A DNA stretch of 64,000 nucleotides from Eledone cirrhosa (lineage: Eukaryota): positions 77,686,001-77,750,000 of the forward strand of contig OZ024743.1 in the NCBI GenBank assembly GCA_964016885.1. The letters run 5' to 3'. A program made the position numbers and the translations under genes. The notes beneath the pieces were generated by a model, which did not search any database, was not told the origin of the DNA, and saw only the letters and a program-made list of their open reading frames with translations. The stretch's first letter is position 1. Each line of letters opens with the position of its first letter. This document shows, piece after piece, positions 11,954 to 54,110 of this stretch.

Positions 11954-12105
11954 GCAATACAAGGACCGAGCCACGGGCTCGCAGGAATACTGCTGTAAAT
12001 GCCCCAAGGATTTTATTAGAAATGATGTCATTGATGAATGTCATAAGAAAAATATTAATGACACCAGATATCCATTTTGCCACTGTAAGTCTGGCATGTT
12101 CCCTA
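11954..12105 (+). CDS. Exon A of a host membrane-protein gene (Cys-rich extracellular)
   Basis: ttttatttttcag acceptor; QYKDRATGSQEYCCKCPKDFIRNDVIDECHKKNINDTRYPFCHCKSGMFP; gtaagt donor after 12105 (alternative same-phase donor after 12084); ends in phase 1. Confidence 0.6.
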
Positions 12106-12168
12106 GTAAGTAAAATATTTCTTACATATTTTATTTATTTTTATGCAGACATCTACTTTATTATTACT

Positions 12169-15143
12169 GACCAGGTGGAGGGGTGGGTCTGCTAGATTCA
12201 TTGAGGGTAAAAAACGATGTTATAAGCTTTTCTGGGTGGGAAACGACGATGGGCTGGGTGGAGTAGGAATCATGGTAGCAGAAAAGTGGGCAGATAAGAT
12301 AATAGACGTAAATAGAGTGAACGACAGAATAATTAAAATACGATTTGTCCTCAATAGAACTACGGTGACAGTAATATCTGCGTACGCACCCCAATCCGGA
12401 CTGCCCGGCACTATAAAAGACAGATTCTATGAGACACTGATGCTAACTACCTCCCAAATATCCGACAGTGACTATATAATTATTGCAGGCGACCTAAATG
12501 GTCACGTTGGACAACATTGTGACGGCTACGACGAAATCCATGGAGTCTATGGGTTTGGTACTAGAAATGAGGAAGGCTCCAGAATCCTGGAATTCTGTGA
12601 TGCAAATAACCTAACTATCTGTAACACTAACTTCAAAAAACGTGACAATCACCTGATCACCTATAGATCCGGGGAACACACAAGCCAGGTAGATTATATC
12701 CTTACCAGAAGACGTGACAGAGTGTCTGTTGTAAACACTAAATCCCTCCCCCATGAAGAATGCACCTCCCAACATAGACTGATAATTAGCGACCTCATAG
12801 TCAGGAGGAGACGTACTCGACAGCAGAAGAGGACTATCCTCAGGAGAAAAATATGGAAGCTAAAGGACCCCACAGCCAGGAATAAATTTCAAAGCATATT
12901 ACTTGATGCTTTCGACAGTAAGGAAGAACATTTAGAGTCGGACAATATAGAGGGAGAGTGGGAATTTCTGAAAGCAAACCTGCTGTTGGCGACAGACGAA
13001 GTCTGTGGCTGGAGCAGGCCTGTAGGCAGGAGGAGAGTAACATGGTGGTGGAACAGTAAGGTGGAGGGGTCAATTAAGGCCAAAAAGCAGGCTTGGAAAG
13101 TATGGCGGGATGGGGGAAGTAGAGAAGACTATCAAGTGGCCAGGAGGGAAGCTAGGAGACAAGTGTACTTAGCAAGAAGGGAAGCTGAGGAAAGAAAGTT
13201 CAAGCATGTTCTACAACGCGATGACCAAAAACGTGAGGTGTTCAGGATTGCTAGGCAATGCGTCAAGGAAAACCGTGATATTGTCGGGGAGAAGTGTGTA
13301 CTAAACGACGATGGCACACTTGCCATCACCGACGCTGATAAGAAGGTAGCTTGGAAGTGTCACTATGAAAGGCTACTAAATGAGGAGAATAAATGGGAGA
13401 AAGACAGTCTCCCCCATATCGACCCAATAGAGGGACCAGCAGTGTTAGTCGAGGGGAGTATAATAAGTAAGGCAATCAAGGATATGAAGACGGGTAAGGC
13501 GGCTGGGCCTTCGGAAATAGTTGCTGAGATGCTGAAGGCATCTGGCACGGTGGGACACACCATGGTCACCCGTATAGTTAACCAAGTCGTACAGAATGGG
13601 GTTGTTCCGAAAGACTGGCATAGCAGCATCATCGTTAACTGTTATAAGGGTAAAGGAGACGCCCTAGATAGGAGTAACTATAGAGGCATTAAATTAATCG
13701 ACCAGGTCATGAAGGTCACGGAAAAAGTAATAGCACAACTAATCAGAGAGAGAATTGACCTAGATGAAATGCAGTTCGGGTTTGTGTCAGACAAAAGTAC
13801 CACAGACGCTCTTTTCATTGTACGACAACTACAGGAGAAGTACCTAGCTAAAGGTAAAGCCCTCTACTTAGCTTTTGTCGACTTGGAGAAAGCCTTCGAC
13901 AGAGTCCCCCGCTCCATTATCTGGTGGGCTCTTAGAAAACTAGGCGTTGACGAATGGCTTGTGAGAGCTATACAAGCCATGTATAAAGAAACAGTCAGCA
14001 AGGTTAGAATTAACAACGAATATAGTGAAGAGTTTAGCGTAAAAGTTGGCATCCATCAGCTCCCTACTATTTATTATTGCCCTTCAGGCTATAACAGAGG
14101 AGTTCAAGACCGGCTGCCCATGGGAACTCCTATACGCAGACGACCTGACACTCATAGCGGAATCAATGGCCGAGCTAGAGAAGAAATTCCAAACATGGAA
14201 GCACGGCCTAGAATCAAAAGGCCTTAAAATTAACCTGGCTAAGACTAAAGTTCTAGTTTGTAGGAAAGAAAATAAGGCGGCGGTCCCTTCTGGGAAATGG
14301 TCGTGCTCGGTGTATAGGAAAGGCGTAGGTAGAAACTCCATTTTATGTCCTAAATGCAAAGTATGGGTGCATAAAAGATGTAGTGGGATCACAGGTAAGC
14401 TAACTAAGAACATAGATTTTACATGTGGCCGGTGCTCTGGTGCAATAAGTAGCAGCAAGTGCCCACAAAATACTAGCTCTTTCAATTGCGCAGAGGGTTC
14501 TATAGAAATAGTGGACAGTTTCCGTTACCTGGGTGATAAAATCAGCAGTGGGGGAGGGTGCTCTGAAAGTACAGTAGCTAGAGTCAGAACTGGTTGGAAA
14601 AAGTTCAGAGAGCTTATACCACTATTAGCTGCTAAAGGGTTCTCCCTAAAAATGAAAGGCAGGTTGTACGATGCCTGCATACGAACAGCAATGTTGCATG
14701 GCAGTGAGACCTGGGCATTGTGTGCAGAGGATATACGCAGACTAGAGAGGAACGAAGCTTGCATGCTCCGCTGGATGTGTAACAGTAATATACGTGAACG
14801 GCAAAGCATAAACGAACTAAGGAAAAAATTAGAAATAAGAGGGATCAGATGTTGTTTACTCGAGAGAAGGCTACGTTGGTATGGACACGTGATGCGCATG
14901 AAAGTCGATAGCTGTATAACAAAGTGCAGGGCAATAAAGATAGACGGTAGCCACAGAATAGGCAGACCTAGAAAAACCTGGGACGAGCTGATAAACTCCG
15001 ACCTCACACACTTACACCTCTCCAAGACAATGTCACTGGACCGAGACCTTTGGCGGTACTCAGTAACAGAGAAGACCCGCCTTACCTAAATACATAGTAA
15101 AACCTACTACAGCCAGTAGGCATCTAACAAAATACCCCCCTTC
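12169..15143 (+). mobile_element. RTE LINE family A, 5'- and 3'-truncated, frameshifted near 14050
   Basis: APE motifs (SAYAPQ, AGDLNGHVG, QVDYIL) and RT motifs (FVDLEKAFD, LYADD) in ORFs 12143-14227 and 14046-15089. Confidence 0.95.
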
Positions 15144-15959
15144 TGTGTCAGTGGCCCAACTCCATCAAACATCTCGAATACTACAGGCTGGAAAAAATAA
15201 TTGTTTGATAGTTCGTGGTATTTTCGGATTTTATTCCATTCAGCAGGGAAGCAGTGACCTTCACATTTACCACAGTATCTATGATGTGGGAGGAAACAAA
15301 AGAATCACTGAAAGAATTGTGAACAATTTGTAATGTTATTTATACAACTGTGTATAAAAGAAAATGTGAACATGTTAATTCTTATGCAAACATCTACTTT
15401 ATTATTTATAGACTATCATATTAGGTTTAACCCTTTTGTGACCTGTTTGAAGCTGTCTCTGGTTCTATCATACTGCCCATTTTAATATATACATATCTAT
15501 TTTAAAATCTTACCTCATAATATTTAAAAAGTTTTTAGTAACCTTCCAAACATCAACTTAATAATGAAAATGATTGTCATTTTTTAAAATCTCTCCAAAT
15601 GTTATATTATTTTGAAAATTATTTGAAAACCATAGACAGTATCTTTCATTAAAAATTTAAGAGACCAAACACTTGCTTAATGGGGGTTTTTTTTTCTCTG
15701 AAGATCTGCTGTCCAGCTATCATTGGGGATTGTCCGGCTGCTTCCTATTCACACTGGTTGCTGTCAAGATCTCAGGTATACTTGGACCCTATACTGCCAA
15801 GCTCCTCCGCAAGATTGGAACGTCAGCAGACTGTCTGAAGAAGGAGCCACATGAGGTGGGGGTGGCTACTGCAGCGGGTGTCTCTGGCCATTGTCTGCGA
15901 AAATGCTTTTGTGGCCTTGTCTGCGGGACTAGCCCCAAAACTGCCATAGTAGGTGATAT

Positions 15960-16435
15960 CATCCAGTCGGTCTTTGCTACTTATTGCACCTGAGCATCAG
16001 CCACATATAGAATCTACATTCTTAGATAGCTTACCTGTGATCCCACTACATCTTTTATGTACCCATAGTTTGCATTTGGGACACAGAATGGAATTTCTGC
16101 CTACTCCTTTCCTACACACTGAGCATGGCCATTTCCCAGAGGGCACCTGTGCCCTACTTTCCTTTCTACATACTAGAACTTTAGTCTTAGACAAGTTAAC
16201 TTTAAGGCCTTTTGATTCTAGGCCATGCTTCCATGTTTGGAACTTCTCTGGTTCAGCCATAGATTCAGAGTGAGATCATCTGCATATAGAAGTTCCCATG
16301 AGTAGCTGTTATAGCCTAAAGGGCAATAATAAACAGGAGGGGGCTAAGGATGGAGCCTTGAAGAACACCGACTTTTATGCCAAATTCTTCACTATATTCA
16401 TTGGTAATTCTAACCTTGCTGAGTGTTTCTTTATA
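15960..16435 (-). mobile_element. RTE LINE RT fragment
   Basis: ORF 15997-16260 is homologous to the RTE Cys-rich region. Confidence 0.85.
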
Positions 16436-16616
16436 CATGTTGTGCATATATGTATGTATATATATATATATGTATGTATGGATATGTATATATATATGTG
16501 TATGTATGGATATGTATGGATATGTATATATATATATATATGTGTATGTATGGATATGTATATATGTGTGGATATGTATGTATGGATATGTATATATATA
16601 TATATATATGTATGTA

Positions 16617-53425: not shown

Positions 53426-53865
53426 TAATAAAAACTTTTGATGTATTAAAGGATTCTTTGTTTTACTCTCTTAATTTTTCGGCTCTGTTTAACTGCATTG
53501 AGCTATACCTTTTACTGTCATTTCTATAATACGAAGAGGGTGTTTGACTCAAACACGCTCCAGTATTCTAATCCTTATATATATATGTATGTATGTATGT
53601 ATGTATCTCTATGTATATATATATATATGTATGTATGTATGTATCTCTATGTATATATATATATATGTATGTATGTATCTCTATGTATATATATATATAT
53701 ATGTATGTATGTATGTATCTCTATGTATATATATATATATATGTATGTATGTATGTATCTCTATGTATATATATATATATATGTATGTATGTATGTATCT
53801 CTGTATATATATATATATATGTATGTATGTATGTATCTCTATGTATGTATGCATCTCTATGTATG

Positions 53866-53898
<33 letters not shown>

Positions 53899-53917
53899 GT
53901 ATGCATCTCTATGTATG

Positions 53918-53948
<31 letters not shown>

Positions 53949-54035
53949 GTATGCATCTCTGTGTATATATATGTATATATATATCTATATGTGTGTGTAT
54001 GTATGTATCAATTCCTTCTCTCCTATTTGTTTCAG

Positions 54036-54110
54036 CAGATAATGGACTTCTGCAACCAAATAGTTCTCTGAACCAGCAGGAACTCGGAGGAATGGAGTTA
54101 GATAATAGAG
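54036..54110 (+). CDS. Exon F: cytoplasmic, paralogous to exon E
   Basis: tttgtttcagcag NAGNAG acceptor (start 54036 or 54039), gtaagt donor, phase 1-1: [23 protein letters not shown]. Confidence 0.7.

What the first reader, a model, noticed from the sequence alone, without database searches (positions are those of the whole stretch)
11954..54110. Hidden split gene for a Cys-rich single-pass receptor-like protein
Seen: six exons with canonical AG/GT ends and compatible phases splice without a stop to ...QYKDRATGSQEYCCKCPKDFIRNDVIDECHKKNINDTRYPFCHCKSGMFP-TCEQQVEICGKTVNCKNNLVYKKCEVAHVNITLTCNDTLKWHPDSICPK-DNTTNNITHQEHGKELK(GVST)5(GGVI)3[61 protein letters not shown]. The product has 12 extracellular Cys, five N-x-T sequons, a hydrophobic helix followed by KK, and a cytoplasmic YEN motif. 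Inference: a lineage-specific immune or adhesion type receptor. Exon A is loosely TNFR-like and exon B loosely sushi-like, but I cannot assign a family. The start and stop exons were not found.
Basis: partly seen in the sequence, partly recalled or inferred. Interest (0 to 1): 0.7.

Follow-up and report, generated by a model that had tools for sequence, protein, structure and literature searches.

The report
Octopod-specific cysteine-rich cell-surface receptor gene
This is a real, spliced gene hidden among repeats; it encodes a cysteine-rich protein predicted to span the cell membrane once, has relatives so far found only in octopuses and argonauts, and likely works as a cell-surface recognition receptor whose inner tail grows by exon duplication.

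The parts
11954..12105 (+). Exon A: module A, CCxC-x12-C-x12/13-CxC, one copy per protein. The 62-nt start/signal-peptide exon that precedes it lies just outside the window, at G000:C4:77685665-77685726 (window = C4:77686001-77750000).
   Evidence: Spliced to B in X1 contig; paralogue 47%; homologues E 1.9e-15 to 7.3e-10; spacing met in 8 of 9 family rows.
20701..20847 (+). Exon B: module B, six Cys and one Trp, phase 1-1, short sushi-like beta module; 1-4 copies in homologues
21960..22133 (+). Exon C: predicted glycosylated stalk, (GVST)5, and start of the membrane helix with (GGVI)3 glycine-zipper spacing
   Evidence: Two perfect 12-bp arrays 22009-22071 and 22069-22116; joint to D in X1; helix hydropathy 2.38
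22687..22710 (+). Exon D, 24 nt: end of helix and basic stop-transfer; dimorphic
   Evidence: Joint 22133>22687. Three other letters in contigs of X2 and X3, not X4 or X1 where covered, all change the residue. Region single-copy in G000.
39405..39464 (+). Exon E, 60 nt, phase 1-1: predicted cytoplasmic, carries YEN
   Evidence: Splice sites and frame; old duplicate of exon F. No read test.
54036..54110 (+). Exon F copy 1, 75 nt (72 nt from the second acceptor 54039), phase 1-1: predicted cytoplasmic
   Evidence: No read test.
47030..64000 (+). Tandem duplication of 10-12 kb units, each holding exon F; it runs on past the window. Further copies of F start at C4:77750155, 77761830 and 77772362.
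   Evidence: Four 100% matches in G000; units 99.5-99.9% alike, spacing 10119, 11675, 10532; one unit has an extra 1.7-kb insert

Best explanation
This is a transcribed, spliced gene of a family so far found only in octopods, predicted to encode a type I membrane glycoprotein that likely acts as a cell-surface recognition or adhesion receptor. Inferred mechanism: module A, always single and outermost, would bind the ligand or counter-receptor. The sushi-like B modules (1-4 per gene) would act as rigid spacers that set reach; this gene has one B plus a Ser/Thr repeat stalk instead. The glycine-zipper helix would favour self-association in the membrane. The unstructured tail is built from short phase-1 exons that duplicate and can be skipped in frame, which would change the dose of short adaptor-binding motifs (here YEN, an SH2-type site by recalled consensus). 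Shown: exons, two splice joints, paralogue, homologues, module layout, tail-exon duplications. Inferred: topology, glycosylation, binding, oligomerisation, signalling, and use of exons E and F.
For: Splice joints A-B and C-D. Start exon in phase; 231 codons with 0 stops. Paralogue with the same exon phases. 5 of 8 profile hits are true homologues; sources name them from O. sinensis, O. vulgaris, O. bimaculoides and Argonauta hians. B repeat number 1-4 with A single. One helix plus an acidic tail with no Pfam family over cut-off in the full-length Octopus homologues. Tail duplications: E/F, F x4, paralogue 33-nt x2 and 27-nt x3 candidate exons scoring above 200 shuffles, and a 31-residue repeat present 1+1 times in O. 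sinensis and 3+1 in O. vulgaris, lacking once in one O. sinensis isoform, while the ectodomains are 97% identical.
Against: No ligand, expression-site or functional data. RNA support is one sample of one study whose kind is not on record, and it covers only A-B and C-D. Tyr motifs differ between members and YEN is not shared. The stop exon was not found in about 278 kb after the last F copy. The window gene has the longest branch of 9 rows (1.36), which fits relaxed constraint as well as diversifying selection. One homologue (Argonauta) continues into about six more hydrophobic segments.
Confidence: 0.55

Rival explanations
1. A highly diverged TNF-receptor-superfamily member that binds a TNF-like ligand and recruits TRAFs.
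For: CCxC start, Cys-rich repeats, type I layout. UniRef names one homologue 'TNFR-Cys domain-containing protein'. One homologue tail holds PVQE, which fits a recalled TRAF consensus.
Against: No PF00020 match in exons A, B or any homologue, at E cut-offs of 1 to 10. PF00020 finds 6 matches at three other loci of this genome and none here. Profile comparison with the genome's own TNFR ORF: probability 0.1%, E 0.79. Both models put a helix in module A, at low confidence.
Confidence: 0.1
2. A membrane complement or thioester-protein regulator working like CD46 or CD55, using the sushi-like repeats as the binding surface.
For: CCP modules of factor H, C1s, CD46 and CD55 recur among fold hits. The repeats + Ser/Thr stalk + helix layout resembles CD46 (recalled).
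Confidence: 0.12
3. A non-signalling surface-coat or spacer glycoprotein; the tail repeats are neutral by-products of a transposon-rich locus.
For: Tails share no Tyr motif across members. The four F units are over 99.5% alike and mostly transposon-like DNA. The perfect 12-bp coding repeats look like slippage.
Against: E and F kept both splice sites and a frame-preserving length difference (60 vs 75 nt) while the exon diverged more (41 of 60 aligned letters) than its flanks (24 of 29, 51 of 59). In-frame tail repeats recur in the window gene, its paralogue and two Octopus members.
Confidence: 0.18
4. The 5' half is a real gene, but exons E and F are not part of its mRNA and the true tail lies elsewhere.
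For: No read test of D-E or E-F, and none of 7 homologues searched against the region matched E or F.
Against: Good splice sites and matching phase 1. Besides E and F, only repeat-like or weaker phase-1 candidates were listed between D and F. The paralogue and homologues also have short duplicated tail units.
Confidence: 0.15

Closest known systems
Uncharacterised octopod proteins: O. sinensis LOC115218424, LOC115218344, LOC115229376; O. vulgaris CAI9732128-131; O. bimaculoides A0A0L8H5C1, A0A0L8GVR5; Argonauta hians GAB1601604
   Same: Signal peptide, module A, module B, helix, low-complexity tail; 43-50% identity over A+B with the Cys, Tyr, PFC and Trp columns kept.
   Different: The window gene is the most diverged row. 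It has one B, a (GVST)5 stalk, a glycine-zipper helix, no juxtamembrane Cys in the assembled allele, and an unrelated tail with YEN. These entries are gene predictions with no described function.
Sushi/CCP (SCR) membrane proteins such as CD46, CD55, selectins, IL-15 receptor alpha
   Same: Small disulfide-rich beta module with Trp before the last Cys, repeated in tandem, one phase 1-1 exon per module here, stalk and single helix (fold hits).
TNF receptor superfamily (PF00020)
   Same: Type I, Cys-rich ectodomain, adjacent CC; one automatic database label.
   Different: Fails the profile and profile-profile tests; no death domain in full-length homologues.
Invertebrate allorecognition receptors (Hydractinia Alr1/Alr2, Botryllus Fester); features recalled, not from a call
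   Same: Lineage-restricted single-pass proteins with Tyr motifs, duplicated exons and alternative splicing; Fester has a sushi domain.
   Different: No Ig domain here, only 2 genes detected in this genome, and no sign of high ectodomain variability (97% between two Octopus species).

Membership tests
Uncharacterised octopod A+B family | Module A with CCxC-x12-C-x12/13-CxC | tested here: met
   Met by the window gene and 8 of 9 rows in all; the Argonauta row lacks the last Cys. Profile E 1.9e-15 to 7.3e-10.
Uncharacterised octopod A+B family | One or more module B with C1, C2, C5, Trp, C6 | tested here: met
   16 of 16 modules, window exon included; the homologue modules were picked by a pattern that asks for these residues, so the count leans that way.
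Uncharacterised octopod A+B family | Signal peptide and one membrane helix | tested here: met
   Hydropathy only; no dedicated predictor was used.
TNF receptor superfamily | TNFR_c6 (PF00020) cysteine-rich domain | tested here: not met
   No match in exons A, B of both genes or in the homologues; the family search hits three other loci of G000; hhalign probability 0.1%.
TNF receptor superfamily | TNFR cysteine spacing pattern (recalled from PROSITE) | tested here: inconclusive
   0 of 9 rows match, but the pattern is from memory and was not run on a positive control.
TNF receptor superfamily | CRD ladder fold | tested here: inconclusive
   Module A modelled at pLDDT about 42-66 with a helix; it was not folded alone and the fold lists were filled by module B.
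TNF receptor superfamily | Death domain or TRAF-binding motif in the tail | tested here: inconclusive
   No death domain in full-length homologues; loose TRAF-like words in some tails; the window tail is incomplete.
Sushi/CCP module | PF00084 profile match | tested here: not met
Sushi/CCP module | Four invariant Cys and a Trp before the last | tested here: met
   16 of 16 (modules picked by a pattern that asks for these residues); two further Cys are in 15 and 14 of 16.
Sushi/CCP module | Disulfides I-III and II-IV | not testable with these tools
Sushi/CCP module | CCP beta-sandwich fold | tested here: inconclusive
Allorecognition receptors (Alr/Fester type) | Extreme allelic polymorphism of the ectodomain | tested here: inconclusive
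   Only 2 samples; the listed coding differences are in exon D, none listed in exons A or B, with 59 rows not shown.
Allorecognition receptors (Alr/Fester type) | Allele-specific homophilic binding or a role in fusion/rejection | not testable with these tools
   Needs cell-aggregation or genetic tests.

The most novel reading that the evidence does not exclude
An undescribed octopod-only receptor family with a new head fold (module A) serves as a variable cell-identity code for self-recognition, immunity or neural wiring. Reach would be tuned by B-repeat or stalk length and signal strength by tail-exon copy number, which may differ between individuals.
Probability: 0.15. Interest if true: 0.8.

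Novelty: new variant of a known kind. Interest (0 to 1): 0.45.

Why it matters
Cephalopod cell-surface recognition molecules outside protocadherins and a few conserved immune receptors are poorly known (own knowledge). This gives a concrete, expressed, small family with two modules that no Pfam family covers, and a clear mode of evolution: the ectodomain stays, while the stalk and tail are rebuilt by repeat and exon duplication. It can be tested at once in existing octopus single-cell atlases through the named homologues. If it is only a surface-coat protein, it is a routine unannotated gene.

Tried and rejected
No RNA holder was listed by the run search; this is no evidence either way, and run X1 was read as RNA-like only from its intron-skipping contigs. 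Word-based homologue searches with single exons found nothing; the HMMER scan did, so those blanks were sensitivity limits. 3 of 8 hits (P0006-P0008) were dropped as unrelated Cys-rich or zinc-finger proteins. L004 is a C2H2 zinc-finger ORF, and the C3:370.4 Mb hits are a satellite read in frame; both rejected. tblastx between the two loci was swamped by repeats. Sequence search of PDB gave 2 chance hits. Foldseek gave 0 matches at E<=0.001 in PDB and in viral structures. No TNFR chain is among the listed fold hits, which does not exclude that fold. ESM Atlas hits were all under 0.9: leads to Sushi/HRM/EGF only. The stop exon was sought in the tandem unit and about 278 kb downstream without a convincing candidate; an assembly gap lies at C4:77804674-77804873. 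The multi-pass part of the Argonauta protein has no match in G000. No read test of exon F and no homodimer prediction were obtained. Literature searches found no paper on the family; 0 papers hold any of 6 accessions. Whether the 'tnfr' marker obimac0032150 of PMC9815951 belongs to this family could not be checked: the one supplementary file held has no such term, and its Methods S1 was not seen. Earlier scan notes: none.

Full report
Setting. The window is G000:C4:77686001-77750000 of a 3.0-Gb animal genome, rich in retrotransposon-like pieces and microsatellites. The organism is inferred to be an octopod because every true homologue came from Octopus or Argonauta.

Observation. The six exons are there with AG/GT ends and matching phases, and join to 209 codons without a stop, with 12 Cys and five extracellular sequons. 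By itself this is weak, since similar open Cys-rich segments occur at 7 other places in the window. Reads settle it for the 5' half. In run X1, one contig passes from 12105 straight to 20701, and a GT..AG joint 22133>22687 is listed; contigs of X2-X4 run through the intron borders. X1's library kind is not on record; I read it as RNA from this behaviour. It is one sample of one study. D>E and E>F have no read test.

Completing the model. A 62-nt exon at C4:77685665-77685726 starts with ATG, encodes a hydrophobic leader and ends in the right phase; it was the only such candidate returned in 52 kb. With it the model runs 231 codons to the end of the first F with 0 stops. Its Cys (residue 17) probably ends the signal peptide, leaving 12 Cys (inference). 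The X1 contig implies about 414 nt of 5' UTR, likely in a further exon, since a 57-bp repeat array lies right before the acceptor. The stop exon was not found.

Paralogue. A second gene lies 8.5 Mb downstream on the same strand: exon A at C4:86162876 (47%), exon B at 86173477 (52%), same phases, then a membrane exon at 86175034. Searches with both genes' exons and three homologues found no third member (lower bounds).

Family. An HMMER scan of 1.84 billion proteins with the two-sequence exon A profile gave 8 hits, of which 5 are true homologues. A wider search added two more. Sources call them uncharacterised or hypothetical, apart from one automatic 'TNFR-Cys' and one 'ribosome-binding protein 1-like' label. 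The full-length ones have a leader, one module A and 1-4 module B; the Octopus ones then have one helix and an acidic low-complexity tail. The window gene is 43-50% identical to the other 8 rows over A+B and has the longest branch (1.36); its place in the tree is unsure. The range 'octopods only' is bounded by shallow profiles and by what the databases hold.

Tail evolution. Exon F sits in four tandem units of 10.1-11.7 kb, 99.5-99.9% alike, with the exon identical. One unit carries a 1.7-kb insert, which argues for real duplication over assembly error (inference; depth was not tested). E and F are older duplicates: flanks 24 of 29 and 51 of 59 alike, exon 41 of 60, lengths 60 and 75 nt, both splice sites kept. 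The paralogue has candidate tail exons of 33 nt twice and 27 nt three times, related above the best of 200 shuffles and joining without a stop (no read test). In Octopus, a 31-residue tail repeat is present 1+1 times in O. sinensis and 3+1 in O. vulgaris, and isoforms drop a 31- or 9-residue unit, while the ectodomains are 97% identical. All window exons from B on are phase 1-1, so copies can be added or skipped in frame.

Alleles. Contigs of X2 and X3 differ at 22687, 22693 and 22696, while X4 (same sample) matches the assembly at all three and X1 at the two it covers. The region is single-copy in G000, so these are likely alleles. All three change the residue (Tyr to Cys, Val to Gly, Tyr to Cys). 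The second allele has Cys at the inner end of the helix, as several homologues do. Three changes in 10 nt may be one event, so this is no proof of selection.

Mechanism. Best reading (0.55): a recognition or adhesion receptor, with A as binding head, B repeats or the Ser/Thr stalk as spacer, a glycine-zipper helix for self-association, and a motif-bearing tail whose dose is set by exon copy number and splicing. Only the gene, its layout and the duplications are shown. Rivals: non-signalling coat protein (0.18), CD46-like regulator (0.12), diverged TNFR (0.10); separately, E/F may not belong to the mRNA (0.15).

Literature. Searches found no description of the family. I read passages of PMC9815951 and of its preprint 10.1101/2022.06.11.495763: a gene obimac0032150 with a TNFR domain marks immature optic-lobe neurons. 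Whether it is the family member labelled TNFR-Cys or a true TNFR is unknown; its Methods S1 was not available. All other papers were seen as search listings only. Features of CD46, Alr, Fester, SH2 and TRAF motifs are recalled.

Verdict. Real gene, confirmed for its 5' half; a divergent member of an undescribed octopod family of Cys-rich single-pass proteins; function untested. Novelty: new variant of a known kind. Interest 0.45.

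Noticed in passing
window 22687-22696: Three residue-changing differences within 10 nt of exon D between contigs of one sample, none in the rest of the 396 laid letters of that contig; the second allele has juxtamembrane Cys.
   Followed up: partly
window 37342-38127 and 38359-39144: A 786-bp inverted repeat, 99.6% alike, ending 260 nt before exon E; it could fold in the pre-mRNA and affect splicing or editing.
   Followed up: no
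window 49052-53475 and 59170-63586: 1.4-kb inverted repeats flank a 353-codon open frame (50470-51531) that looks like a Penelope-type endonuclease piece (recalled resemblance); copied in the F units.
   Followed up: no
window 12110-15143, 26746-29228, 29865-33558; 43561-47115: Recent (about 97% alike) LINE-like copies, one starting just after the exon A donor, and LTR-retrotransposon-like pieces on the minus strand.
   Followed up: no
G000:C4:86152967 and 86159825: The paralogue's candidate signal-peptide exon is present twice, 6.9 kb apart.
   Followed up: partly
P0004 (Argonauta hians GAB1601604): Modules A+B followed by about six hydrophobic segments; either a multi-pass form of the family or a fused gene model. 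The multi-pass part has no match in G000.
   Followed up: partly
G000:C4:100.76 Mb, C3:150.74 Mb, C3:40.02 Mb: Three loci with TNFR_c6 domains over the Pfam cut-off; the C4 one has four repeats (three over the cut-off) in one open frame.
   Followed up: partly
G000:C4:77793993-77799981 and 77586001-77610560: A 467-bp tandem array at 99.9% identity downstream, and a second roughly 10-kb tandem duplication upstream of the gene.
   Followed up: no
P0002 modules B1 and B2: One Octopus member has lost C4 in B1 and both C3 and C4 in B2, which hints that C3-C4 form an optional disulfide.
   Followed up: no
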